A DNA stretch of 53,024 nt from a phage. This document shows, piece by piece, positions 31,393 to 53,021 of this stretch. Position numbers and translations under genes: made by a program. Position 1 is the stretch's first letter; each line of letters opens with the position of its first letter. Location of the stretch: sequence record PZ386956.1. One strand, written 5' to 3'. The notes beneath the pieces are model-generated. The model was not told where the DNA came from. It did not search any database and worked only from the letters and a program-made list of their open reading frames with translations.

Positions 31393-31418
31393 TGTATCTC
31401 TCCTCTAAAAGATAACTT

Positions 31419-31447
31419 ATTATACCACATCACTCTCTAGTGGTAAA
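31419..31447 (-). promoter_or_regulatory. promoter TTTACC-N17-TATAAT with extended -10 and internal palindrome
   Basis: On minus strand: TTTACCACtagagagtgatgTGGTATAAT; ACCAC/GTGGT arms span the spacer. Confidence 0.45.
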
Positions 31448-31472
31448 GCACTTTTTATGCTTCGGGTAAAAT

Positions 31473-31502
31473 AAAAAGGACCAGCGTTAACTGGTCCTTT
31501 TG
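31473..31502. terminator. bidirectional rho-independent terminator
   Basis: AAAAA-GGACCAG-cgttaa-CTGGTCC-TTTT: 7-bp GC stem flanked by A-run and T-run, so it terminates in either orientation. Confidence 0.6.
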
Positions 31503-31552
31503 GCAGGGTGGCGTAAGGAGATACAAGGAATCGCAGTTATGCAACCAGGCAG

Positions 31553-31641
31553 CGCATATGAGATTGGCTAAAGGACTTACCGACTTAGTCCCCGCGACGA
31601 GTCAGAAAGGAGGTACCGTCAAGTAGCCAATCGCATATGCG
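31553..31641. repeat. long stem-loop element 1 (18-bp inverted repeat, 1 mismatch, ~53-nt loop)
   Basis: cGCATATGaGATTGGCTA ... TAGCCAATCgCATATGCg; loop contains nested hairpin GGACT-taccgact-tAGTCC. Confidence 0.6.
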
Positions 31642-31642
31642 T

Positions 31643-31727
31643 TACTTGCTGTGTGCTCTTACCACATGAAAAGTATATAGCGTTACACTTATCACACAGT
31701 TGTAGTGGCAAAAGCACACAGCGAGTA
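31643..31727. repeat. long stem-loop element 2 (15-bp inverted repeat with one G-T pair, 55-nt loop)
   Basis: TACTTGCTGTGTGCT ... AGCACACAGCGAGTA; inner 10 bp perfect. Confidence 0.6.
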
Positions 31728-31732
31728 CAACC

Positions 31733-31819
31733 TTAGTTGTGGTGTCTTAGCACCTGAGTTACTGTGGATAACCTGCACCCGACGGGTGTCAAAAAGATAC
31801 GCCAAAACACCACAACTAA
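31733..31819. repeat. long stem-loop element 3 (13-bp perfect inverted repeat, 61-nt loop)
   Basis: TTAGTTGTGGTGT ... ACACCACAACTAA; loop contains hairpin CACCCG-a-CGGGTG; followed by 12-bp palindrome CCAGGCGCCTGG (31840-31851). Confidence 0.6.
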
Positions 31820-32070
31820 AATTGTGACCGCCGTCTACACCAGGCGCCTGGGGTCAAGGTAGCGAGCCAATACCCTTTTCAGCGTTGGAGGAATCGAACC
31901 TCACACATCACGGCTTTTACCAAATCTCGGTCAGCGAGCAGAATTGAACTGCATTCACTGGACACCCTCACTGTTTCAACACACCAGGCTTAATTGATTG
32001 TTGATAAGAAGAGAGATGTAAGGATGTCCATTGAATGCACCTCCGTAGAGGTGCGTTCAGATCAGCGCTA

Positions 32071-41670: not shown

Positions 41671-42003
41671 ATGATAAAGCCAAAACTGTTGCGGCATATT
41701 CGCAACGGTATTAAGCTACTCGCTGAAGGCAATGAGTATGCCTGCAAGCAACGCGGTATTACAAAAGTCGGCCTGTTCAATAAAGAGTTACCAACTCGCT
41801 ACTTTACCAAATCACCACTAACACTCGTACCTGCAGCGGAGTATTATAAAGACCCCGAAGCAGCCAGGGCTAAAATCAAGGAAGGTCTTGACCGACTTGT
41901 AGAGGAAGGCTATTTGACAGTACGTCAACACACTGAATCATCTTATTACTACAAGCCAACTTCTAAGGTAACCAGCAATGACAATGACGAGTCAGCCGAG
42001 TGA
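41671..42003 (+). CDS. hypothetical protein
   Basis: 110-aa ORF with AAGAGGAG RBS; overlaps primase-helicase start. Confidence 0.5.
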   Translation: MIKPKLLRHIRNGIKLLAEGNEYACKQRGITKVGLFNKELPTRYFTKSPLTLVPAAEYYKDPEAARAKIKEGLDRLVEEGYLTVRQHTESSYYYKPTSKVTSNDNDESAE

Positions 42004-44512
42004 TATTCTCGGTCTGAAATACTTTAAGCCAGAAGGGATTCCCCAAGTCTTCAAAGATATGAAGCGCTGGGCTATCTTTGAGCTGACGTACGAAGACGAG
42101 ACCCTCGAAGTTCAATCCAAACCTAAGAAACCTGCAAGAGCGCCATCAGGCCGTTCCTTCAGCACAACAGTGCCTGAAGAGTGGATGACTTTCGACGACG
42201 CCCTGACACGTTGTATCCGCAATCGTGAAATGAAGATTAAAGCTGTACAGGGTAACATCACCTTTGTGCCGGCTTTGATTGTTCCTCGCCAGTGGTACTT
42301 TGTTGACCTGGACAACCATGATGATAATCCAGACATTGAAGCTACCCACAAAGCGATAATTGAGGGGACTCGTGGCGCTTATGCTGAGACGTCAATCTCC
42401 GGCAAAGGGCAACACATTGCAATCCCTTTACCCTGGACTGCAGCAACATCCAAAGAGAAAGACGAACAGCTGGACATCAAAATCCAGAAGGCTGAGATGT
42501 TCCTGGTAATGACAGGCAATGTATTGAGCGAGTTCAATGCTAATCCTGTTTCAGCCCGTGAATGGCATGCAGCAATTGAGAAGTTCTTTCTTGAATCAAG
42601 CGCACCTGACATTGATGTTGAGTTTGAGCAAGACGAAGACCGTGGCGAAGAGTATGACAAAGAGCTATACGAACAGTTAGCCGACAATACTCGCTGGGCG
42701 CTTGAACATTATCTTAGCGACTATGCACCAGACGGTGTTGGTGTGAGTAATGACGGTTCCGAACGTTTAAGCCGCATACTCAAAGACTTGCTTCGTGTAA
42801 CCCGTAACTATGAAGTTACACAACGCATCTTCATGGCCAGCAAAGCTGCAGCATATGAAGGCCGCAGACCAAGTCGACATAACCTGTCTGTTGATAAGTA
42901 TCATCAGTGGTTCAGTCGTGTCGGTAAGACTGTGCTGAAAGAGATGCAACGTGACGGCTTATTCGTTAAGACCAAGTTTGCTCTTGACATCAACAAAGAG
43001 TTAGCCAAGAATTCAGGTGTCTCCCTGGCTGAGAACGTTGAGTTCAAGGTCAACGACGACATTCTGCCTTCTGATGTATTCGTCAGGACGGCCCCGTCCG
43101 GGTTTAAACGGCTTATTGCTGAGATACAGGATAACATATCTCCTGCTAACAGGGTTAACGACTATGCCATCGGCACAGCTCTTAACATCCTGAGCAACTG
43201 CGCCGGTCGCAAGTATGTTTGTCCAGTAGGTGGTCATGCTAACTTCCTGGTAACCAACATCATTCTTGTGGGTGGTTCATCAATCGGTAAATCCCTGTAT
43301 ACCGAAATGTTCCCACAAATCCAGGCAAGTTTACCTGACACATCACCTATCAGCCTTAACCGTATCCCAAGGGAACAGACTTTTGCAACCAGGACGTTTG
43401 CTGAACTGATGTCCAACCCGTCATACCATTCAGTTCAGTTGTTCTATCCTGAATTTGGTCTGGCTTTAGGTTCAGGCTTACGCATGAATCCTAACAACCC
43501 GGACAACTTTCAGAAAGCTCTGATGGACGCTTCAACCAAGCGTAAGGTTGGCGGTATACTGACAGGTATCAAACGTGCTAATGCTGACAATGATGTTAAG
43601 ACTGTAAGCGAACCGTGCTACTCTATCCTGGGTGACTCAACTCAAGAGCTTATCCTTGACAACACCCGGAAGCAAGACTTCTCAAGTGGCTTTTTGCCCC
43701 GCTTCCTGTTCATCCCGAACTATGAGCGAGCGGAGTTTGCCAAACCTGAGAAAGTAGGACGTCGCCAGCAGATTCGCCGTACATCCTTTTCAAAGGAGCT
43801 GATTGAGAAGCTGGAAGCAATCGCTTATGTGAATGCTATCCCGCCTAACGGTAAACTAAGGCATGACCCGATTCCTATTTACGACGAATCGGATGATGAC
43901 GACTTCCTGTACGAGTACCAGTGCAATATTAATGACATGCGCCAGTATTACAGGGACAACGAAGTAGCATCCGCCTTTGTGGGCCGAATGGGTGAGTATG
44001 TATTCAACATAGCAGCACTGATTGGTTTACTCGACAACTGGGATGCTCCTGTAATGACCAGGGACAACATTGAATGGGCTTACAAATACGTTCTTCGCTG
44101 TATAACCGCCTGGGTCAATAACACAAGCAGAATAGTCGCACCTCCGACTACCAACGCCGAAGTAGTGGACGGCTTCCTCAAAGTCTACAGGGACATTTTG
44201 GCCCTTTACACCAAAAGAGGCTGGAACGGTATTGTTAAGCATTATCCTGAAGGTGTTGTAAGAAGCTTACGGGAAGACCATCTGAAAATGAACGGGCTTA
44301 GCATATATGCTATCCGGCAATCATTAAGTTGGTTCAAGTCCAATTATGGCTTTAACATAACCGCTAATAACAAGGTTATTGACGGTATGTTGCAGGATAT
44401 GATTGACCAGGACTATTTAGCAGTCCAAATATACAAACCCACAAGAGGTAAATCGGCAAATATCTACTGTTTAACTGAACGGGGATACGACGAAGCCAAG
44501 AAACTTAAGTAA
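41978..44512 (+). CDS. DNA primase-helicase (AEP prim-pol domain fused to SF3/D5-type helicase)
   Basis: 844 aa; N-terminal AEP motifs (FVDLDNHD with DxD; SGKGQHIAI with His), C-terminal P-loop VGGSSIGKS. Confidence 0.8.
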   Translation: MTMTSQPSDILGLKYFKPEGIPQVFKDMKRWAIFELTYEDETLEVQSKPKKPARAPSGRSFSTTVPEEWMTFDDALTRCIRNREMKIKAVQGNITFVPALIVPRQWYFVDLDNHDDNPDIEATHKAIIEGTRGAYAETSISGKGQHIAIPLPWTAATSKEKDEQLDIKIQKAEMFLVMTGNVLSEFNANPVSAREWHAAIEKFFLESSAPDIDVEFEQDEDRGEEYDKELYEQLADNTRWALEHYLSDYAPDGVGVSNDGSERLSRILKDLLRVTRNYEVTQRIFMASKAAAYEGRRPSRHNLSVDKYHQWFSRVGKTVLKEMQRDGLFVKTKFALDINKELAKNSGVSLAENVEFKVNDDILPSDVFVRTAPSGFKRLIAEIQDNISPANRVNDYAIGTALNILSNCAGRKYVCPVGGHANFLVTNIILVGGSSIGKSLYTEMFPQIQASLPDTSPISLNRIPREQTFATRTFAELMSNPSYHSVQLFYPEFGLALGSGLRMNPNNPDNFQKALMDASTKRKVGGILTGIKRANADNDVKTVSEPCYSILGDSTQELILDNTRKQDFSSGFLPRFLFIPNYERAEFAKPEKVGRRQQIRRTSFSKELIEKLEAIAYVNAIPPNGKLRHDPIPIYDESDDDDFLYEYQCNINDMRQYYRDNEVASAFVGRMGEYVFNIAALIGLLDNWDAPVMTRDNIEWAYKYVLRCITAWVNNTSRIVAPPTTNAEVVDGFLKVYRDILALYTKRGWNGIVKHYPEGVVRSLREDHLKMNGLSIYAIRQSLSWFKSNYGFNITANNKVIDGMLQDMIDQDYLAVQIYKPTRGKSANIYCLTERGYDEAKKLK

Positions 44513-44516
44513 AATC

Positions 44517-44566
44517 AAGGGCTTATGTAGTAAAATACGTAAGCCCTTATTTTATATACTCTTTTT
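44517..44566 (+). terminator. terminator-like hairpin after primase-helicase gene
   Basis: AAGGGCTTA-(14 nt)-TAAGCCCTT followed by T-rich ATTTTATATACTCTTTTT. Confidence 0.45.
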
Positions 44567-44568
44567 GC

Positions 44569-44902
44569 TCCGGTAGACTAGTTATGGAATAAATAAACCG
44601 TGTTTTTCGAATTAAGTGCACTTAAGCTACTGTTTTATATACTCTTTTCTTTTTACATGAATTAGTAAATATATGGAGCCCTTTATAAAGAAAAAGGGGG
44701 GTAATAAGGGGATACAAGTACCGGATAAAAGGGGTATATATTTATTTATTATTATTATTATTATTATATATTATTAATTATATTAGAAGTAATAAAAACA
44801 GCTACTTAGAGGCGTCTATATGTATGATCCGGTTTATCTCTTTATTAATATCAGAACCGGATGAAAAAAAATTACGCCGGCGAAAAAAAATAAAAAACCG
44901 GA
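44569..44902. promoter_or_regulatory. putative replication-origin region: ACCGGA iteron-like repeats, AT tract, A-tracts
   Basis: Five ACCGGA/TCCGGT copies (44569, 44720, 44828, 44856, 44897), 8-bp IR ATCCGGTT/AACCGGAT, palindrome CGCCGGCG, two A8 runs; no ORF. Confidence 0.35.
44735..44786. repeat. pure A/T tract with (ATT)n microsatellite
   Basis: About 52 nt of only A/T including TTATT(ATT)6-like run. Confidence 0.7.
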
Positions 44903-45026
44903 CTGATAAATAATTCGTAGGCATGTCTAAAGCCAGGCGTGGCAAGCTTCGGTGATATTTACTATGTTATTGTATGTTAGTGTGCGTTATAATATATTTA
45001 TTATTCAACAGATGAGTTGTGCAACT

Positions 45027-45533
45027 ATGGATCCAATTGTAAAAGTATTTGAAGGTAAAAATATCACATTTTCATCAATTAAGAGGGGTACCAAAATGGC
45101 ATCCCTCATTGTTGTTAAAGGAAGCGATTTAGCTAAAGCGCTGGGCTACAGCTACGCGGAAAAACTTTATAAAAGGTTAGACAGCGATTATAAAATTACT
45201 GATGACAAAGGAGCAGTATGGGTAACTGAACCTGGTATTTATCAGGCTATATTCGGTTCGCAGCTTGAATCAGCTAAAGCATTTCAGCGCTGGGCATACG
45301 AAGAAGTATTTCCCACCATTCGTGGGAATGGTTATTACGTTACACCAGAGCTTCAACCAGTGCTGGATCTACTGTCTGATGAAATAGACTTACTACGTGC
45401 ATATGCTACAGCTGACTGCCACGGAAGAGCAAGGCTTAAGTCAAGAATTATGACGATATGGAAAAAACAAGTAGAAAATGGTAACTCTTTGGACCGCGTA
45501 GTCCAGATTTTAAAAGGAAACAGTGCATGGTAA
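45027..45533 (+). CDS. Bro-N domain protein
   Basis: Bro-N signature (VFEGKNITF...SLIVVKGSDLAKALGY...GIYQAIFGSQLESAKAFQRWAYEEVFPTIRGNGYY); start could also be 44952 or 45012. Confidence 0.65.
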   Translation: MDPIVKVFEGKNITFSSIKRGTKMASLIVVKGSDLAKALGYSYAEKLYKRLDSDYKITDDKGAVWVTEPGIYQAIFGSQLESAKAFQRWAYEEVFPTIRGNGYYVTPELQPVLDLLSDEIDLLRAYATADCHGRARLKSRIMTIWKKQVENGNSLDRVVQILKGNSAW

Positions 45534-45958
45534 ATATTCGTGTTATTGGCCAGAACTTTGAGAGAAAGATGGCTAAAAAATTCAACGAATCTTTTGGACT
45601 TGACTGCCAGCGTAACCTGCAGCAATCAATAAATGGCGGGGATGACTTGCTTGGTATACCGTTTTTCAGCGTTGAACTGAAGAAGCACAAGACCAAGTCT
45701 ATCGGAACATGGTGGAGACAGTGTGCGGCATCGGCAAAGGCTCAGAACAAGATGCCGGTACTGATATACGAACTACCAAGAAAACAGCCTACCGTGGTGA
45801 TGAATAAGGCTGATGTGATTGACTGCTTTCCAAGTGGCACGACTTTTAACGAGGCATCGAACCGCCTCTTTGTGGGTCTAGTAGAATTAACATGGGAACA
45901 ATTTTGCCGGGTCTACAACTATTACGTTGCGCCCGGCACTCAATATCACGTCAATTAA
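45527..45958 (+). CDS. VRR-NUC-like PD-(D/E)xK nuclease (putative)
   Basis: 143 aa; D...E-x-K arrangement (GDDLLGIPFFSVELKK) typical of small phage nucleases/resolvases; overlaps Bro-N stop. Confidence 0.45.
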   Translation: MVNIRVIGQNFERKMAKKFNESFGLDCQRNLQQSINGGDDLLGIPFFSVELKKHKTKSIGTWWRQCAASAKAQNKMPVLIYELPRKQPTVVMNKADVIDCFPSGTTFNEASNRLFVGLVELTWEQFCRVYNYYVAPGTQYHVN

Positions 45959-46140
45959 TCTTGTTTCAGCTCGTCACAAATAACACGCTGATTTTTGGCA
46001 GGGATAATACCAAGATTCAGTAAGGTGTATGGACTATCGGCGGCACATTGTTCAACGGTAGTCCATTCAGGTTTGGATTCAACAATTTTGTAACTACAAT
46101 CATGAGTAGCCACACATGTTGCCAGGATTAAGCCAATCAC
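45955..46140 (-). CDS. small hypothetical protein (hydrophobic N-terminus, possible lipoprotein)
   Basis: 61-aa ORF, GTG start overlapping upstream stop (GTGA); N-terminus MIGLILATC. Confidence 0.4.
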   Translation of the reverse strand: MIGLILATCVATHDCSYKIVESKPEWTTVEQCAADSPYTLLNLGIIPAKNQRVICDELKQD

Positions 46141-46316
46141 AAGTAATCGCCTTCAACCAGGAACTCAAACAATTGGTTGTAGACGTTGCAACCTTTAGCG
46201 AAAGAGCTTTCAGCAGGTTTACCATCGCGGACGATCATCATATACTCACCGCCATGGATGTCCACCCAGTATTGCATGCCACCTTTGACCGGGTTACGTT
46301 GTAAGAATTTAAACAT
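46137..46316 (-). CDS. small hypothetical protein (59 aa, not in ORF track)
   Basis: ATG with AAGGAG RBS 6 nt upstream, TAATG-coupled to upstream gene and GTGA-coupled to downstream gene; reads MFKFLQRNPVKGGMQYWVDIHGGEYMMIVRDGKPAESSFAKGCNVYNQLFEFLVEGDYL. Confidence 0.45.
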   Translation of the reverse strand: MFKFLQRNPVKGGMQYWVDIHGGEYMMIVRDGKPAESSFAKGCNVYNQLFEFLVEGDYL

Positions 46317-46561
46317 TATTTGCTCCTTATTCCAAGTTTATTCAATAGCCAAATTGTCATGTCAACCCAGGTTAACGGTACAGTTTTCGGGGGTTGATAA
46401 TTCCAGCAGCTTGCAGTTCTTTGTATTTCTGCTTGGCGCCGCTCCGCTTCGCGTAATACCGCATCGTCAGAAGTGCCGGCAGAAAAAAGATCGGTAACAC
46501 CAGATAAATCGCGTTGATTAACACGTCGAGCAATGTCATATAAATCATCCTTAGAAAACAT
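46316..46561 (-). CDS. hypothetical protein
   Basis: 81-aa ORF in early leftward cluster. Confidence 0.45.
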   Translation of the reverse strand: MFSKDDLYDIARRVNQRDLSGVTDLFSAGTSDDAVLREAERRQAEIQRTASCWNYQPPKTVPLTWVDMTIWLLNKLGIRSK

Positions 46562-46700
46562 AAGCCAATACCATAAGAATTATCAGAAAGATCCCAACCA
46601 GCTTCCTCATGGCCCGACCTTCAGCATATGCAGGATTCACAACAGAATACTCAACAACATGTTTACAGCGGACCATAAGGCCTCCACTTGTGGGTTAATT

Positions 46701-46737
46701 CAATCATGAGGACTTTTGGCAAATCCTCATTGTTGAA
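46701..46737 (-). repeat. conserved intergenic hairpin, copy 1
   Basis: Plus strand CAATCATGAGGACTTTTGGCAAATCCTCATTGTTGAA, immediately 3' of the stop of gene 46738..46941. Confidence 0.55.
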
Positions 46738-46941
46738 TCACTCCATCATTACCTGAACTATTATTATACACTCTTTATTGAAGCGGGTAAATACCTTTCC
46801 TCCATTGGTGCGTTTAGCCCCAGATTTTAGAGCTGACTGGCACCAGACATGCCACTCCTCAACTGTCAAGAATTTTTGCTCAGCTTTGGGTGGTAGTCCA
46901 TTGGCAAGGTCTACCGTAGTAAATTTGACCAGCGGCATCAC
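46738..46941 (-). CDS. hypothetical protein
   Basis: 67-aa ORF, ATGA-coupled to upstream gene. Confidence 0.4.
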   Translation of the reverse strand: MMPLVKFTTVDLANGLPPKAEQKFLTVEEWHVWCQSALKSGAKRTNGGKVFTRFNKECIIIVQVMME

Positions 46942-47327
46942 TTAACCTCAAATTTTGACTCGTCATATTCCGGATCAGTCACGTCCCGGGTAGCACAATT
47001 TTTGATTGCCTCCCAGTAACGTTGGGCGTCATCGCCATCGACATAAACTGTCCAGTGGCCGTAACCACCTTCAAATCTGTCCCAGGCTTGTTCCCAGACT
47101 TTGCCATCTTCCAGCTTGTACCAAGTTGGACGACTGTCAAACTCGCGGATTGGATGGTACCCCATCAAAGGATTCATCAGGTCAATAATGTCTTCCCGAC
47201 TAATCTCCTGGTTCTCCCACAACACCGTCATGAATTGCTCAAACTTGAAGGCGTTTGGCAGAACTTTGATGACTTCACCATCACGATATACGGTATAGGT
47301 ACCATCTTCGCATTTTGCACTGTACAT
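46938..47327 (-). CDS. hypothetical protein
   Basis: Start ATG 47327 (AGGAG RBS, MYSAKCEDG...); track first Met at 47360 lies inside hairpin copy 2. Confidence 0.5.
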   Translation of the reverse strand: MYSAKCEDGTYTVYRDGEVIKVLPNAFKFEQFMTVLWENQEISREDIIDLMNPLMGYHPIREFDSRPTWYKLEDGKVWEQAWDRFEGGYGHWTVYVDGDDAQRYWEAIKNCATRDVTDPEYDESKFEVK

Positions 47328-47353
47328 GTTTCTCTCTCCTATTGATATAATTT

Positions 47354-47394
47354 CAATCATGAACTATCACAACTTTGGATAGTTCATTGTTGAA
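47354..47394 (-). repeat. conserved intergenic hairpin, copy 2 (compensatory stem)
   Basis: CAATCATGA-ACTATC-acaacttt-GGATAGTT-CATTGTTGAA: same flanks as copies 1 and 3 but a different, still complementary, stem. Confidence 0.55.
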
Positions 47395-47395
47395 A

Positions 47396-47569
47396 CTATA
47401 CTAACTTTGTTGCGATCTGAATTGTCAGCCGGAAATCTTCCATCAAGTTATCAAACTCTTTGGAACCGCCAACCGCATCAGATATTTGATCTTTCACGAT
47501 TTGGGCATTTGATTCCAGTAATTCAATCAGGTGCGCCAATTCGTCTTCAGTCAATTTCAGATCTTTCAT
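47396..47569 (-). CDS. hypothetical protein
   Basis: Start ATG 47569 overlapping upstream stop (ATGA); 57 aa. Confidence 0.4.
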   Translation of the reverse strand: MKDLKLTEDELAHLIELLESNAQIVKDQISDAVGGSKEFDNLMEDFRLTIQIATKLV

Positions 47570-47823
47570 AATGCATCCACCCAAGCCATAACTTTTGCCA
47601 GTCTTACAACGTCTTCATGGTCCCGATCGCCATCAGAAAATTCGCTGGCGATGATACCCATAATTGACGCCAGATTCATGTTGATGATGTACGAGTGTTC
47701 CCGCACTTCATCAATTCCTGAATCTATCACCAATTCCGCAAATTCCTGCGAACCTTCATCCCATTCAGCCCAATACTGCTCAGCATAAAAGTCCAGTTCT
47801 TTTTTCATCTCAATATCAGTCAT
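47566..47823 (-). CDS. hypothetical acidic protein
   Basis: 85-aa ORF, acidic. Confidence 0.45.
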   Translation of the reverse strand: MTDIEMKKELDFYAEQYWAEWDEGSQEFAELVIDSGIDEVREHSYIINMNLASIMGIIASEFSDGDRDHEDVVRLAKVMAWVDAL

Positions 47824-47828
47824 TTTGA

Positions 47829-47987
47829 TTACTCCTCAGAACCTGAAAATTTGTCGTCAATGGTTTCAACGATATAATCAAGAGTTGAAGTGTGAGAACT
47901 ATCAGAAAAAGTGCCCATCTTCTCTAACTCAATCATCATATCCCGCAAAGCCATCGCCTGGTCTTTGGTCAGTTTGATTTTAAGCAT
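47829..47987 (-). CDS. hypothetical protein
   Basis: Start ATG 47987 (GGAG RBS, MLKIKLTKDQ...); 52 aa; track start 48029 lies inside hairpin GATGGCACT-acttg-AGTGCCATC. Confidence 0.35.
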   Translation of the reverse strand: MLKIKLTKDQAMALRDMMIELEKMGTFSDSSHTSTLDYIVETIDDKFSGSEE

Positions 47988-48051
47988 GTTTCTCTCCTGT
48001 TGATTGTGAATAATTTCAATTGATGGCACTACTTGAGTGCCATCTCAAAAA

Positions 48052-48621
48052 TTACTCTTCAGTTTCTTGTGCTTCAGTTTCAGGTTTTTCTTCAGTCTCA
48101 GGTTTTTCGCCTGTTACTGATTTGCCCTCAGTCACTTTACCAGATTTTACATCATTACGGTAATATGACATATAGGATTGGACAACACGTTTTGCCCTAA
48201 TATCATCCGCTTCCATCCCACAGGCTTTCATGGCATCAGCCAGCGCCAATTTGGAATCTTCTTTGTCCATCAAGTTGTAATCCTTGAATACTGCATAGCA
48301 TGTATCCTTGGTTGACGGACCGGATGAAGTTTTGCGGGTGCCACCTGCAGATGCACGTGATGCCGCAACTTTGACCTCTTCAACTTCCAGTTGGTTAAGC
48401 TCATCAAACAAGGCTTTCACCAGCACTTCTTTGGAGTCTTTGACAGTTACAGAACTTTCATCATTAAGGGACTTAATCATCTTAATGATCTGGTTATTGG
48501 CAAAGTACTGAAGACTATCCATCTGCACTACAATAGTCCCAAGACTTTCAGTAGTCAGACCAGATTTTACAGACTCAACAGAAAAGGCGGAAGTCAGGTA
48601 AACATAGTTGATAGTAGTCAT
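48052..48621 (-). CDS. hypothetical protein with acidic PETEE-repeat tail
   Basis: Start ATG 48621 (MTTINYVYL...); 189 aa; C-terminus EKPETEEKPETEAQETEE. Confidence 0.5.
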   Translation of the reverse strand: MTTINYVYLTSAFSVESVKSGLTTESLGTIVVQMDSLQYFANNQIIKMIKSLNDESSVTVKDSKEVLVKALFDELNQLEVEEVKVAASRASAGGTRKTSSGPSTKDTCYAVFKDYNLMDKEDSKLALADAMKACGMEADDIRAKRVVQSYMSYYRNDVKSGKVTEGKSVTGEKPETEEKPETEAQETEE

Positions 48622-48677
48622 TGATGTATCCTCATTGATAGAATTTTTGATAAGTGTCAATCCTTGACAAGTAAGTC

Positions 48678-48715
48678 CAATCATGAGGACTTTTACCAAG
48701 TCCCCATTGTTGGAA
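48678..48715 (-). repeat. conserved intergenic hairpin, copy 3
   Basis: CAATCATGAGGACTTTTACCAAGTCCCCATTGTTGGAA immediately 3' of the stop of gene 48717..48890. Confidence 0.55.
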
Positions 48716-48716
48716 A

Positions 48717-48890
48717 TTACTTCAATTTATCCAGAATTGATTGGAGTAACTTGACCCTCACTTCCTGGTCTTTGACATCCCTTCCACTTTCCCTGTCATA
48801 TTCCAACAGGTCACTTTCCATAAATAAGGTTGTGTCCAGTTGGTCAACCAATAATTCCAGTTCTTCTTGGGACAATTCTAAAACTTTCAT
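48717..48890 (-). CDS. hypothetical protein
   Basis: Start ATG 48890 (AGGAG RBS, MKVLELSQEE...); 57 aa, acidic helical. Confidence 0.4.
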   Translation of the reverse strand: MKVLELSQEELELLVDQLDTTLFMESDLLEYDRESGRDVKDQEVRVKLLQSILDKLK

Positions 48891-48894
48891 CTTA

Positions 48895-49044
48895 TTACTC
48901 CTGATATTTAACAACTTGGGATTGGATAAAGTCAACACAATCTTCCACATCCATTGACTCAAAGTCTGGAACTGGACCAGTATTTATATTGACACACCAA
49001 AGCCCTTCATTGGTATCATACCAAAGTGTGTAGTTGTCCTTCAT
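48895..49044 (-). CDS. hypothetical protein
   Basis: Start ATG 49044 (AGAGGTG RBS, MKDNYTLWYD...); 49 aa; track GTG start 49098 is an alternative. Confidence 0.35.
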   Translation of the reverse strand: MKDNYTLWYDTNEGLWCVNINTGPVPDFESMDVEDCVDFIQSQVVKYQE

Positions 49045-49428
49045 AATAGTCACCTCTTGTATTAGTTTCCAGTTGTGACTACTGTTACCAATAGTCACTG
49101 GTTGAAACTATTACTAGTGTTACTATCAACAAGAAACATGTTACCAAATTGTTAAAGAGCAAAAGGTACCATTGACATCTACCAGATGTACCTGTTGACT
49201 GGTTAAGTACTACCTACCCAAATTAAACCATACCAATACCCTCCAGACCAGTTGACTGGTCACTCAGTCATCACATTCAATAAATATATAATAGTCCAAT
49301 CCCTCTTGATTGTACACCTTATATTTGTAAGTTTATGCAAGTTTTTAGAAATGATAATCACTTGCGGTTGAGAGTGGTTCTCATATACAATTGATATAGT
49401 TTCACATGTAATTACTCAACTCAAAATG

Positions 49429-49483
49429 GTCGGCAGGGGTTATAATAACATAGGGGTGCCACTCGAAGGAGCCGGCGAAATTA
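49429..49483. repeat. 55-nt imperfect direct repeat, copy A
   Basis: GGTCGGCAGGGGTTATAATAACATAGGGGTGCCACTCGAAGGAGCCGGCGAAATT; about 65-70% identical to copy B. Confidence 0.45.
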
Positions 49484-49604
49484 TTTCTAAAAATATAATT
49501 TCAATCTGAATTATAGACGCTTTGTACTATAACGGCCGAAGTAGTTCACCCGGTAATTGTATCAATCACAATAGTTACCAGAGTAATCATTTCAATTGAA
49601 ATAG

Positions 49605-49659
49605 GTGCGGCGGGGGGTAATTTCGCAAGGGTGCTACCTGCCAGGAGCCAGCAAAATTT
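49605..49659. repeat. 55-nt imperfect direct repeat, copy B
   Basis: GGTGCGGCGGGGGGTAATTTCGCAAGGGTGCTACCTGCCAGGAGCCAGCAAAATT followed by T-rich run; shares GGGTGC.AC...AGGAGCC.GC.AAATT core with copy A. Confidence 0.45.
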
Positions 49660-49879
49660 TTTATTTTTTCTCTATTTTCTCCTTATCAGGACCAATCATC
49701 ATCAGATTGATACAACAGGAGCTAACCTTTTGCCTAACACAATAATAAGTGAAGCCCCTCTAAAATTTTTTTATATTTTTCGGAAATTGTGTAGACACTC
49801 ACTAAAAAGTGGTGTACTTTCTCTCCTCCACGCGCTATCATTAATGTGAATCATCAAACGGCCTCACGGTCTCCTACTT

Positions 49880-50377
49880 GTGGGTAACATTATGAAAATT
49901 GTTCAATTAGAGCCATATCCACCTCAATTGGCTATCGTTTGTAGTGAAAAAGAGCACGAAGAGCTCCAAAAACTGATGGATTTGCCTGATTTTGGCAACT
50001 GGAATGACCGGGAAACGCGTAATGCATCTACCTTTACGTTCACTCGCGTTAACTATCCGTACCTGTTAATCGTCGTCGAACTGTATCACCCGGACGACCT
50101 GAAGTACAACACCATTTCCCACGAAGGCATTCACGTAATGTCGTCGCTGATGAACTATGTAGGGCTTAAATACGACCCAGAAAACGATGAATGGTACGCA
50201 TATCAGCACGATTTCATCGTAAATGCCATTTGTAAGGCCCATGACGAGTACCTGGAGCGCAAAAAAGCGCCAAAACATAAGCCAAAAATCGAAACAGGTA
50301 ACCATCCTGCAATACTGCCACAAGACGTAATGAACTCGCTTTTGACTGACACTACTGGGGACTTTTTAGGTGATTAA
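49880..50377 (+). CDS. HExxH-motif protein (putative Zn-metallopeptidase-like)
   Basis: 165-aa ORF (GTG start; ATG 4 codons later); contains HEGIH in a helix-like context (TISHEGIHVMSSLMNYVG). Confidence 0.5.
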   Translation: MGNIMKIVQLEPYPPQLAIVCSEKEHEELQKLMDLPDFGNWNDRETRNASTFTFTRVNYPYLLIVVELYHPDDLKYNTISHEGIHVMSSLMNYVGLKYDPENDEWYAYQHDFIVNAICKAHDEYLERKKAPKHKPKIETGNHPAILPQDVMNSLLTDTTGDFLGD

Positions 50378-52730: not shown

Positions 52731-53021
52731 ATGGCAAAACCGAAAAAAACCCGTGAGGCAACAGAAGAATTGTTGGCCACGATGCGACGTATCCAGCTGG
52801 ACCCGTTGGAAGTTATGCAACGGGCTATCATACTTGCTGAACGTGAAGACGACTACAAAGCAATGATGGATGGTGCACTGGGCGTTATGCCGTACATGTA
52901 TCCTAAGCTGAAAGAATCCGTTGTCAAAGCAGACATCGACCAAAACCTGTCCGGTAATGGCGTCAACCTGAACATTACAATAGGCGACCAGAAAGTGGTA
53001 GATACTACTGGGGAAGAGTAA
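52731..53021 (+). CDS. terminase small subunit (putative)
   Basis: 96-aa basic/helical protein whose stop is 3 nt from the window end; terL begins at nt 1, so it sits directly upstream of terL if the genome is circular or permuted. Confidence 0.4.
   Translation: MAKPKKTREATEELLATMRRIQLDPLEVMQRAIILAEREDDYKAMMDGALGVMPYMYPKLKESVVKADIDQNLSGNGVNLNITIGDQKVVDTTGEE

What the first reader, a model, noticed from the sequence alone, without database searches (positions are those of the whole stretch)
44565..44905. Iteron-like ACCGGA array with AT tract and phased A-runs next to the primase-helicase gene: candidate replication origin
The 440-bp ORF-free gap after the AEP-primase/SF3-helicase gene contains five ACCGGA/TCCGGT copies (three as ACCGGAT(A/G)AAA), an 8-bp inverted pair ATCCGGTT/AACCGGAT around a 20-nt AT spacer, palindrome CGCCGGCG, a 52-nt pure A/T tract with (ATT)n, and two A8 runs. 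Repeated initiator-binding motifs plus an easily melted AT tract beside the initiator gene is the textbook origin arrangement.
Basis: partly seen in the sequence, partly recalled or inferred. Interest (0 to 1): 0.5.

Follow-up and report, generated by a model that had tools for sequence, protein, structure and literature searches.

The report
Phage genome end, not clearly origin
The repeat-rich, AT-rich gap after the primase gene of this Salmonella/E. coli phage contains the exact spot where the packaged DNA molecule begins (the left edge of a ~4.8-kb terminal repeat), so its repeats most likely guide the DNA-packaging enzyme, and a replication origin is at best a second function of one part of it.

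Summary
Five ACCGGA copies, the CGCCGGCG palindrome, a 51-nt pure A/T tract (the least stable duplex in the genome) and the genome's only two A8 runs all lie at 44569-44902. A ~230-nt core (44694-44920) is conserved far above neutral expectation, even in relatives whose primase is only 43% identical.

The window is a Rosemountvirus genome. Two relatives carry identical long direct terminal repeats: fHy-Eco03 (PhageTerm plus restriction digests, PMC8145870) and vB_SalM_Sz. Both repeats start at the homologous base, in the centre of the palindrome (GCC|GGCG), which is window 44878|44879. ACCGGA copies and A8 runs flank this cut symmetrically.

The other repeat boundary (window 49649|49650) shares GCC|RGCRAAA plus A/T runs. 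It also shares GGGGGGTAAT, which occurs only twice in the genome, once near each boundary.

Best reading: this is the left terminal-repeat boundary and terminase processing site. The terminus is shown by homology; the role of the repeats is inferred.

An origin remains possible only for the 136-nt AT-tract module beside the primase-helicase gene. Supporting hints are a probable C-terminal winged helix and short-repeat arrays after homologous primase genes in distant phages. None of this was tested directly.

No structured RNA was found. It is a new member of a known kind, of moderate interest.

The parts
41671..42003 (+). Small conserved gene (110 aa) overlapping the primase start. Its C-terminus has a winged-helix-like pattern (LDRLVEEGYLTVRQHTESSYYYKPT). 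It is a possible binder of the conserved motifs.
   Evidence: 72-76% identical in KE26, KM and SOI901; in KM and SOI901 the primase is only 43-44% identical. PHROG 28429, function unknown. Distant phages also have a small gene in front of the primase; in Loki it is annotated 'putative DNA-binding protein'.
41978..44512 (+). Primase-helicase (844 aa): N-terminal AEP primase motifs, DUF3987 P-loop ATPase, and a probable C-terminal winged helix.
   Evidence: phrog_3022 'DNA primase', E = 1e-186. DUF3987 scores 22-25 bits here and 45.6 bits in homolog P0007. DxD and SGxGxH motifs are visible in alignment A1. The C-terminal model shows a helix plus beta-hairpin at pLDDT 70-75. The top Foldseek PDB hits are predominantly winged-helix proteins, but all have E >= 0.07. 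PMC4889955 states that DUF3987 helicases are SF6 and carry a C-terminal wHTH.
44517..44552 (+). Intrinsic terminator of the primase gene (13-bp stem plus T run).
   Evidence: Found by the scan. The stem is conserved with differing complementary stem versions in relatives (ATG/CGT, GGG/CCT, AGG/CTT).
44550..44648 (+). Variable left part of the gap, with two exact 16-nt direct repeats TTTTATATACTCTTTT (44550, 44633). These belong to a loose TAAGnnCTTGTTTT box family.
   Evidence: 0 of 100 shuffles reach 6 matches. This part is poorly conserved and rich in indels among relatives. Related boxes occur in KE26, KM, SOI901 and SE4.
44696..44705 (+). G-box GGGGGGTAAT, the first of three AAGGGG runs (44695, 44706, 44728).
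   Evidence: The exact 10-mer occurs only twice in the genome: here and at 49612, 38 nt before the right repeat boundary. The G runs are conserved in most lineages (reduced in SOI901).
44712..44730 (+). Left copy of a 19-nt direct repeat, ATACAAGTACCGGATAAAA, containing ACCGGAT.
   Evidence: family D3 (79% identical to 44848-44866). Conserved in Rosemountvirus and Loughboroughvirus; degenerate in KE26, KM and SOI901.
44735..44785 (.). 51-nt pure A/T tract, a (TTA)n microsatellite and the least stable duplex in the genome.
   Evidence: In relatives the repeat unit differs ((TTA)n, (TTTA)n, (ATCT)n) while the A/T composition is kept.
44796..44810 (+). Most conserved box, AAAACAGCTACTTAG (consensus AAAACAnnnACTTAG), followed by a -10-like hexamer at variable spacing.
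   Evidence: AAAACA and ACTTA invariant (final G in all but S144) in nine lineages. The block 44796-44826 is 77-81% identical in KM and SOI901, against 34-36% at primase third codon positions.
44827..44862 (.). Inverted pair ATCCGGTT / AACCGGAT around a 20-nt spacer.
   Evidence: I2. Not conserved as sequence outside Rosemountvirus; SE4 and PK3 have a different inverted repeat (AATCCATAT / ATATGGATT) at the same place.
44848..44905 (+). Terminus unit: ACCGGAT-G-A8-TTA-CGCC|GGCG-A8-T-A6-CCGGAC. The predicted physical left end and first base of the terminal repeat is 44879. ACCGGA copies lie 17 nt to the left and 18 nt to the right of the cut.
   Evidence: The identical terminal repeats of fHy-Eco03 (3,699 bp; PhageTerm plus restriction, PMC8145870) and vB_SalM_Sz (4,263 bp) both start at the homologous GCC|GGCG (GCT|GGCG in Sz). 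The AEV23, PEA2-3 and L019 assemblies end 8-23 nt to the right of it. The architecture is conserved in all lineages.
44879..49649 (+). Predicted direct terminal repeat (4,771 bp) holding Ant (45027-45533), the RusA-like gene (45527-45958) and the minus-strand cluster of small genes.
   Evidence: Boundaries placed by homology to fHy-Eco03 and Sz (right boundary corrected by one base against 'GGAGCC|AGC'). Gene content matches 'g01, g02 forward, then reverse small genes' in PMC8145870.
49612..49672 (+). Right repeat boundary unit: GGGGGGTAAT, 28 nt, GGAGCC|AGCAAAATTTTTTATTTTTT. A paralogous copy with exact GCCGGCGAAA lies at 49471.
52731..53021 (+). Probable small terminase subunit gene (96 aa), directly before the large terminase gene (1-1449). 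It is the candidate binder of the terminus repeats.
   Evidence: ORF position; by synteny with S144 ORF07/ORF08, annotated as terminase small and large subunits. It was not analysed further here.

Best explanation
The element is the left boundary of the phage's long direct terminal repeat, that is, the place in replicated concatemers where terminase makes the cut that creates the left end of the packaged DNA.

Shown, by homology to two relatives with identical terminal repeats: the left end falls between 44878 and 44879, in the centre of CGCC|GGCG. The repeat runs to about 49649.

Inferred:
- The direct repeats flanking the cut symmetrically (ACCGGAT plus A8 on the left, A8 plus ACCGGAC on the right) and the upstream G-box GGGGGGTAAT are the recognition and bending elements on which small terminase assembles, positioning large terminase at the palindrome. 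This resembles repeat boxes and intrinsically bent DNA around the SPP1/SF6 pacC cut.
- A compact version of the same unit (G-box, 38 nt, GCC|AGCAAAA, then T runs) specifies the right-end cut.
- At the left boundary this unit is split by a 136-nt module (AT tract, AAAACAnnnACTTAG box, inverted repeat) bracketed by a 19-nt direct repeat.
- That module is easily melted. It may serve as the start point for the DNA synthesis needed to regenerate the repeat, or as a replication origin used by the adjacent primase-helicase. Which of these applies, if either, is open.
For: 1. Published termini. fHy-Eco03, a Rosemountvirus, has 3,699-bp direct terminal repeats found by PhageTerm and confirmed by restriction digests. 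Its forward genes g79 and g80, just before the right repeat, correspond by position to gp79 and primase gp80 of the record.
2. In MW602648 the two annotated repeats are identical. The right copy starts 360 nt after the primase stop, in the context ...GTTATTGCC|GGCGCAAAAAG.
3. Independent record PP236111 (vB_SalM_Sz) has identical 4,263-bp terminal repeats starting at the homologous base...TTTACGCT|GGCGAAAAAAA.
4. Three assemblies without duplicated repeats end 8-23 nt to the right of this point.
5. ACCGGA copies and A8 runs are symmetric around the cut. The pattern ACCGGAT / A-run / (G)CC|GGCGG / GAAAAAAAGTCGGATTG is conserved in nine lineages, down to 43% primase identity.
6. Both boundaries share GCC|RGCRAAA plus A/T runs. 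Exact GGGGGGTAAT occurs only at 44696 and 49612, and exact GCCGGCGAAA only at 44876 and 49471.
7. The published S144 restriction bands fit a right end in the 45.4-46.2 kb gap: PacI to end 7.9 kb, SspI to end 5.5 kb.
8. The non-coding core is 65-84% identical in Loughboroughvirus/KE26 and about 50-81% per block in KM/SOI901 (highest at the conserved box; two blocks only ~50%), where primase third codon positions are 34-55%.
9. SPP1/SF6 pac sites consist of direct-repeat boxes on both sides of the cut and A/T runs interspersed with GC pairs that wrap small terminase (PMC4737164).
Against: - No reads or virion DNA of this phage were available, so the terminus is transferred by homology (the gap is 71-99% identical among relatives).
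- The Sz ends may have been set by its depositors by analogy with fHy-Eco03.
- No binding data link terminase to ACCGGA or to the G-box.
- The right boundary has no ACCGGA copies.
- The S144 authors reported two unexpected 5-7 kb SspI bands and proposed short repeats. My model predicts 5.5 kb plus 10.9 kb, so it is only partly consistent.
- Other record ends in the gap (BP63 at about 44746; swi3, IntR and SD350 at about 44803) do not coincide with the cut. They are probably assembly breaks in the AT tract or depositor conventions.
- The AT tract, the conserved AAAACAnnnACTTAG box and the position next to the primase-helicase gene are not explained by packaging alone.
Confidence: 0.62

Rival explanations
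1. Replication origin. The primase-helicase, or the small conserved protein encoded just upstream of it, binds ACCGGAT-type repeats on both sides of the 51-nt A/T tract, melts it, loads itself and primes synthesis. This is how SaPI Rep/PriRep proteins act at origins placed immediately after their genes. It could coexist with the terminus function, confined to the 136-nt AT module (about 44727-44862).
For: - The AT tract is the global stability minimum. Its composition, but not its sequence, is conserved in relatives, as expected for an unwinding element.
- ACCGGAT copies at 44720(+) and 44828(-) bracket the tract.
- The adjacent protein is AEP plus DUF3987 with a probable C-terminal winged helix. 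The literature says DUF3987 helicases carry a C-terminal wHTH and, for other primase-helicase families, that such WH domains may recognise origins (PMC5862659).
- SaPI origins are 6-12 penta- or hexanucleotide iterons immediately downstream of rep, with a central AT-rich region (PMC9371898).
- Distant homologs have lineage-specific arrays after the primase gene. Halfdan has TATAAGG x6, none elsewhere in 5 kb. IMG/VR contig L022 has TTGGGAAA x2 and TTTCCCAA x2 around an AT-rich centre. Its genus relative Loki has permuted ends, arguing against a fixed terminus there.
Against: - The palindrome, both A8 runs and two of the five ACCGGA copies are centred on the physical end, not on the AT tract.
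- The G-box recurs at the other terminus.
- Only one conserved ACCGGAT lies to the left of the tract; the 44569 copy is not conserved.
- ACCGGAT is conserved (in L019; partly in SOI901, not in KM) although the primase winged helix region is only about 41% identical.
- Cumulative GC skew has no extremum here; it follows gene orientation.
- There is no experimental origin mapping for these genera in the searched library.
- The structural evidence for a winged helix is of low confidence (pLDDT 55; Foldseek E >= 0.07).
Confidence: 0.28
2. Promoter-upstream regulatory region. The A runs and CGGAT repeats act as UP-element, curved DNA or operator sites for the first promoter on the entering DNA (TTTACA-N17-TACAAT in relatives), which drives the RusA-like gene.
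For: - In S144, SE4, PK3, JEP7, brunost, KE26, KM and SOI901 a good sigma-70 promoter starts about 45-50 nt to the right of the cut. It is the only promoter-like site conserved across the S144, KM and SOI901 scans.
- The A runs lie at about -40 to -100 relative to it.
Against: - In the window and at least 13 relatives the Ant cassette replaces that promoter at 44921, yet the core is unchanged. No sigma-70-like site is found on the plus strand here.
- This reading does not explain the exact coincidence with the terminus, the motif sharing with the other boundary, or the AT tract 100 nt further upstream.
- The AAAACA / -10-like pair has variable spacing of 14-21 nt.
Confidence: 0.1
3. A structured non-coding RNA or small peptide gene is encoded in the gap.
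For: The gap is large and conserved. Some depositors annotated small ORFs here (KE24).
Against: - No Rfam match at the gathering threshold, and only chance-level hits at E <= 1.
- The consensus fold of eight diverged sequences gives only 5 pairs with no compensatory change.
- The single-strand fold is no better than shuffles (z = 0.31).
- The small ORFs lie in the microsatellite and are not conserved.
Confidence: 0.03

Closest known systems
Direct-terminal-repeat boundaries / concatemer-junction processing sites of T7/T3-type phages (pacB, pacCL, pacCR; short repeat arrays beside the terminal repeat). Recalled from my own knowledge, not checked here.
   Same: The ends are fixed and non-permuted, with an identical repeat at both ends. 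The cut occurs at a defined sequence, with a recognition region just outside or at the repeat boundary, short repeats next to it, and a need to regenerate the repeat by DNA synthesis.
   Different: The repeat is 3.7-4.8 kb and carries early genes (more like T5 or SPO1 in size), against 160-230 bp in T7/T3. The phage has no RNA polymerase of its own. The motifs are unrelated. The cut is at the centre of a GC palindrome flanked by A8 runs. Whether an upstream recognition site exists is not known.
SPP1/SF6 pac site (pacL-pacC-pacR; PMC4737164)
   Same: The cleavage site is flanked on both sides by direct-repeat boxes. Runs of 5-8 A/T are interspersed with GC or CG pairs, giving bendable DNA suited to wrapping around a small-terminase ring.
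   Different: SPP1 packages by the headful mechanism, with one initiating cut and permuted ends. Here both ends are fixed and a second related site marks the right end. SPP1 pac overlaps the terS gene, whereas here the site is about 8 kb from terS.
SaPI/PICI replication origins (PMC9371898)
   Same: Short hexanucleotide repeats lie immediately downstream of a gene for a self-loading AAA+ (MCM-like clade) helicase that can be fused to an AEP primase and ends in a winged helix. An AT-rich centre has repeats on both sides.
   Different: Only 1-2 conserved repeats lie to the left of the AT tract. The densest repeats surround the genome end, not the AT tract. No binding or origin activity is known. 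SaPI origins are not genome termini.
Phage lambda cos (cosQ-cosN-cosB) logic. From my own knowledge.
   Same: There is an elaborate recognition array at the initiating cut and a simpler signal for the terminating cut. The cut site has two-fold symmetry.
   Different: Lambda makes 12-nt cohesive ends at a single site per junction. Here there are two cuts 4.8 kb apart and a duplicated repeat.

Membership tests
Direct-terminal-repeat (fixed-end) genome terminus | A unique, non-permuted physical end at this sequence | tested here: met
   Met in relatives. fHy-Eco03 ends were determined by PhageTerm plus restriction digests (PMC8145870). Record MW602648 starts at GGCGCAAAAAG, which is the homologous palindrome centre. 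Sz starts at the same base. This was not measured for the window's own DNA.
Direct-terminal-repeat (fixed-end) genome terminus | Identical sequence repeated at both ends of the virion DNA | tested here: met
   The 3,699-bp copies of fHy-Eco03 and the 4,263-bp copies of Sz are each 100% identical. The window is a collapsed single-copy assembly, so this cannot be seen in the window itself.
Direct-terminal-repeat (fixed-end) genome terminus | Related cleavage or recognition sequence at the two repeat boundaries | tested here: met
   GCC|GGCGAAAAAAAA versus GCC|AGCAAAATTTTTT (window), and CCC|GGCAAATTTTTT (fHy-Eco03). GGGGGGTAAT occurs only at 44696 and 49612.
Direct-terminal-repeat (fixed-end) genome terminus | Terminase binds and cuts here | not testable with these tools
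   This needs EMSA or footprinting and in vitro cleavage with the products of 52731-53021 and 1-1449.
Iteron-type replication origin (SaPI/PICI-like) | Located immediately downstream of the initiator-helicase gene | tested here: met
   The primase-helicase stop codon is at 44512 and the conserved core starts at about 44694.
Iteron-type replication origin (SaPI/PICI-like) | Six to twelve short iterons, at least two on each side of a central AT-rich region, in opposite orientations (PMC9371898) | tested here: inconclusive
   The window has two copies on the left (44569-, 44720+) and three on the right (44828-, 44856+, 44897+). However, 44569 is not conserved, and 44856 and 44897 are centred on the genome end.
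Iteron-type replication origin (SaPI/PICI-like) | Initiator carries a sequence-specific DNA-binding (winged helix) domain | tested here: inconclusive
   The sequence pattern and a low-confidence AF2 model (pLDDT 55 overall, 70-75 in the wing) suggest a winged helix. Foldseek hits are predominantly winged-helix proteins, but all at E >= 0.07. The literature generalisation about DUF3987 supports it.
Iteron-type replication origin (SaPI/PICI-like) | Supports initiator-dependent replication, or shows a marker-frequency peak | not testable with these tools
   No read data are available. No publication on origins in Rosemountvirus or Loughboroughvirus was found.
Headful pac site (SPP1/P22 type) | Circularly permuted, terminally redundant ends produced from a single initiating cut | tested here: not met
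   Relatives have fixed, identical terminal repeats with defined boundaries.
Sigma-70 promoter with UP element | -35/-10 hexamers at 16-18 nt spacing directly downstream of the A-rich region | tested here: not met
   Present in relatives lacking the Ant cassette. Absent from the window's plus strand.
Structured RNA family | Rfam match, or a conserved fold with compensatory changes | tested here: not met

The most novel reading that the evidence does not exclude
The left terminus-recognition unit (G-box ... GCC|GGCG) has been split by a 136-nt AT-rich module bracketed by a 19-nt direct repeat. This module would be an origin or priming site used by the adjacent AEP-DUF3987 primase-helicase. Replication initiation next to the repeat boundary would then be mechanistically coupled to regeneration of the 4.8-kb terminal repeat, and possibly to terminase cutting. 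That would be a combined ori/pac junction element not described for this kind of phage.
Probability: 0.15. Interest if true: 0.65.

Novelty: new member of a known kind. Interest (0 to 1): 0.4.

Why it matters
Most deposited genomes of these widely used Salmonella and E. coli biocontrol phages (Rosemountvirus, Loughboroughvirus) are arbitrarily permuted and lack the terminal repeat.

Knowing that the DNA starts at GCC|GGCG after the primase gene and ends at GCC|AGC about 4.8 kb further on has three practical uses:
- genomes can be oriented and completed correctly;
- it explains why many assemblies break in this gap;
- it identifies which genes are present in two copies and enter the cell first.

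It also gives a concrete, testable sequence model for how a long-terminal-repeat terminase recognises its two cut sites. Finally, it flags a candidate origin beside an MCM-like primase-helicase, a class of phage replication initiator with almost no experimental data.

Tried and rejected
- Structured RNA: Rfam on the gap (E <= 1) and on the whole window (gathering threshold), RNAalifold on eight diverged sequences, and a single-strand fold against shuffles were all negative.
- Sigma-70 promoter inside the core: AAAACA plus a -10-like hexamer has inconsistent spacing of 14-21 nt. The scans find only the downstream TTTACA-N17-TACAAT in relatives.
- Minus-strand terminator reading of the AAAACAnnnACTTAG box: plausible only in KM and SOI901 (palindrome ACACTT-AGA-AAGTGT), not in Rosemountvirus.
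- GC skew as an origin indicator: it follows gene orientation and is uninformative.
- Primase domain assignment: phmmer and an HMM profile against PDB sequences gave no hits. The full-length AF2 model was unusable (pLDDT 47). The homolog search found only 7 proteins.
- Physical end in this gap: I first rejected this from the S144 restriction paper. I reinstated it after finding the fHy-Eco03 PhageTerm result; the S144 data concern the right end.
- Record ends at 44746 and 44803 (BP63, swi3 and others): these do not coincide with the terminus and were left as probable AT-tract assembly breaks.
- PaMx42: the repeat counts downstream of its primase were terminator or coding sequence and unconvincing.
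- A literature search for T7 'pacB' returned only PacBio matches, so the T7/T3 comparison rests on my own knowledge.
Full report
CONTEXT

The window is a complete, collapsed and permuted genome of a Rosemountvirus, a ~53-kb Salmonella/E. coli myovirus. A 3.7-kb stretch around the finding is 92-96% identical to phages birk, emiel, SPLA11 and others.

The finding lies in the gap between two genes:
- An 844-aa primase-helicase (41978-44512, +). It matches phrog_3022 and weakly matches DUF3987. AEP motifs FVDLDNH and SGKGQH are visible in alignment A1.
- A Bro-N/Ant gene (45027-45533), followed by a RusA-like PDDEXK resolvase gene (45527-45958).

Kazlauskas et al. (PMC4889955) place DUF3987 in SF6 (MCM-like) helicases that are often fused to AEP primases and end in a winged helix.

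CHECK OF THE OBSERVATION

All listed features exist.
- ACCGGA occurs 14 times in the genome, which is the chance expectation, but five copies fall within 334 nt. The pointwise P is 4.5e-8, the best non-AT hexamer cluster. Genome-wide, 11 of 300 Markov genomes reach this level for some GC-containing hexamer.
- The A/T tract is 51 nt (44735-44785). It is the longest in the genome and the global stability minimum (z = 6.7).
- The two A8 runs are the only ones in the genome.
- The inverted pair and the palindrome (44875-44882) are as described.
- Only two copies, not three, are exactly ACCGGAT(A/G)AAA.

CONSERVATION

I aligned the gap from twelve relatives. I then aligned the core with more distant ones: KE26 (primase 79% identical), vB_SE1_KM (44%), Erwinia phage SOI901 (43%) and an IMG/VR contig (42%). 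The layout from left to right is:
- The primase terminator (44517-44552) is conserved, with differing complementary stem versions.
- 44553-44690 is variable.
- 44694-44920 is a conserved core.

The order of elements in the core is kept throughout: G runs; a CAGAACCGG-type box; a pure-A/T microsatellite whose unit differs between lineages; an invariant AAAACAnnnACTTA(G) box; a second ACCGGAT box; (G)CC-GGCGG; and GAAAAAAAGTCGGATTG.

Core blocks are 65-84% identical in Loughboroughvirus/KE26 and about 50-81% in KM/SOI901 (highest at the conserved box), where primase third codon positions are 34-55%. The element is therefore under purifying selection.

Homology stops at about 44920, where the downstream cassette varies. 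It is Ant in some phages, an HNH endonuclease in others, or directly a TTTACA-N17-TACAAT promoter and the RusA-like gene.

There is no sign of a structured RNA.

THE DECISIVE LEAD

Many database records end inside this gap. At first I discounted a physical end. The S144 paper (PMC7432712) places the ends in the gap between the small-gene cluster and the next cluster, and my in-silico PacI/SspI map of S144 agrees for that end.

However, the paper on fHy-Eco03, a Rosemountvirus (PMC8145870), reports 3,699-bp direct terminal repeats found by PhageTerm and confirmed by restriction digests. Its forward genes g79 and g80, just before the right repeat, correspond by position to gp79 and primase gp80 in the record.

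The sequence records confirm this:
- In MW602648 the two annotated repeats are identical. The repeat begins 360 nt after the primase stop, at ...GTTATTGCC|GGCGCAAAAAG....
- An independent 57,020-bp record, vB_SalM_Sz, has identical 4,263-bp terminal repeats beginning at the homologous base...TTTACGCT|GGCGAAAAAAA....
- Three assemblies that lack the duplicated repeat (AEV23, PEA2-3, contig L019) end 8-23 nt to the right of it.

By homology, the right repeat boundary is at window 49649|49650 (GGAGCC|AGCAAAATTTTTTATTTTTT). This gives a 4,771-bp repeat carrying Ant, the RusA-like gene and the minus-strand small genes.

For S144, a right end at GGGCC|GGCGAAATT (45,789) reproduces the 7-10 kb PacI band and one of the 5-7 kb SspI bands. 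The second SspI band is not reproduced, because my model predicts 10.9 kb.

ANATOMY AROUND THE CUT

- ACCGGA (44856-61) lies 17 nt to the left of the cut and ACCGGA (44897-902) lies 18 nt to the right.
- The A8 runs lie 7-14 nt to the left and 5-12 nt to the right.
- All lineages keep the pattern ACCGGAT / A-run / (G)CC|GGCGG / GAAAAAAAGTCGGATTG.
- The two repeat boundaries share GCC|RGCRAAA followed by A/T runs.
- Exact GCCGGCGAAA occurs only at 44876 and 49471. Exact GGGGGGTAAT occurs only at 44696 and at 49612, which is 38 nt before the right boundary.
- The right boundary thus looks like a compact unit: G-box, then the cut.
- At the left boundary the same unit is interrupted by a 136-nt module (AT tract, AAAACAGCTACTTAG, inverted repeat). 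The module is bracketed by the 19-nt direct repeat ATACAAGTACCGGATAAAA / ATATCAGAACCGGATGAAA (D3).

INTERPRETATION

- The position of the end is shown, by homology.
- That the ACCGGA/A8 repeats and the G-box are terminase recognition or bending elements is inferred. The inference rests on their symmetry about the cut, their recurrence at the other boundary, and analogy with SPP1/SF6 pac sites, which have repeat boxes on both sides of the cut and A/T runs interspersed with GC pairs that wrap small terminase (PMC4737164).
- The comparison with T7/T3 concatemer-junction sites rests on my own knowledge.

WHAT REMAINS OF THE ORIGIN IDEA

The 136-nt AT module lies just outside the repeat and next to the primase-helicase gene. 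Packaging alone does not explain it.

In favour of an origin:
- The tract's composition, but not its sequence, is conserved.
- It is bracketed by ACCGGAT copies in opposite orientation (44720+, 44828-).
- The primase-helicase probably ends in a winged helix (low-confidence model; Foldseek hits predominantly winged-helix but not significant).
- SaPI origins have this layout immediately after rep (PMC9371898).
- Distant homologs carry different short-repeat arrays in the gap after the primase gene: TATAAGG x6 in Halfdan, and TTGGGAAA/TTTCCCAA 2+2 in contig L022. Loki, of Halfdan's genus, has permuted ends by BAL-31 digestion.

Against an origin:
- Only one conserved repeat lies to the left of the tract.
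- The motif stays ACCGGAT in L019 and partly in SOI901 although the primase winged helix region is only about 41% identical. The small upstream 110-aa protein (41671-42003) is 72-76% identical in these phages and also looks like a winged helix, so it is an alternative binder.
- GC skew is uninformative.
- No origin mapping exists for these genera in the searched library.

I rate an origin function at about 0.28, not exclusive of the terminus function.

VERDICT

The location of the terminus was already implicit in one GenBank record and paper. The sequence anatomy of the two boundaries and the split-unit layout have not been described, as far as the searched library shows.

This is a new member of a known kind, of moderate interest (0.4).

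Noticed in passing
window 31393-32070: A ~650-nt ORF-free stretch of normal GC content inside the minus-strand replication gene cluster, with a hairpin plus T run at about 31474-31503. It has no Rfam family and no tRNA.
   Followed up: partly
window 49050-49880: An 830-nt intergenic region between the minus-strand small genes and the plus-strand cluster. It contains the predicted right terminal-repeat boundary (49649|49650). It also has two paralogous ~60-nt units (G-box ... GGAGCC|RGCRAAA) 178 nt apart, ACCWGTTGACTGGT x2 (49190, 49247; these contain TTGAC -35-like hexamers) and AAAATTTTTTATTTTT x2.
   Followed up: partly
window 44513-44951 versus database records: About 11 of ~45 related genome records or contigs have a record end inside this 440-nt gap. 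Three ends lie 8-23 nt from the true terminus. Others are in or next to the AT tract (BP63 at about 44746; swi3, IntR and SD350 at about 44803) or elsewhere in the gap (BEC1-17, SB2, UPF_BP2, SE-SHZ-R). These are probably assembly breaks or depositor conventions. Most records lack the terminal repeat altogether.
   Followed up: partly
window 41671-42003: A 110-aa protein overlapping the primase start is much more conserved (72-76% identity) than the primase (43-44%) in distant relatives KM and SOI901, and has a winged-helix-like C-terminus. fHy-Eco03 gp79 and gp80 (its homolog and the primase) are annotated as virion-associated by LC-MS/MS.
   Followed up: partly
window 44921-45533 and homologous loci L008, L009, L010: There is a mosaic junction right after the core. 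The Ant (Bro-N) cassette in the window and at least 13 relatives replaces the TTTACA-N17-TACAAT promoter found in others. LPSEYT carries an HNH homing endonuclease at the same place.
   Followed up: no
L029 3802-4102 (Escherichia phage Halfdan) and L022 4787-5163 (IMG/VR contig): Distant AEP-DUF3987 primase genes (21-24% identity) are followed by gaps with their own short-repeat arrays. Halfdan has TATAAGG x6 (5 direct, 1 inverted), none elsewhere in 5 kb. L022 has TTGGGAAA x2 then TTTCCCAA x2 around an AT-rich centre.
   Followed up: partly
PMC8145870 (fHy-Eco03): The authors report that most restriction enzymes fail to cut the DNA and suggest an unknown DNA modification in this Rosemountvirus. 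This is relevant to any restriction-based end mapping.
   Followed up: no
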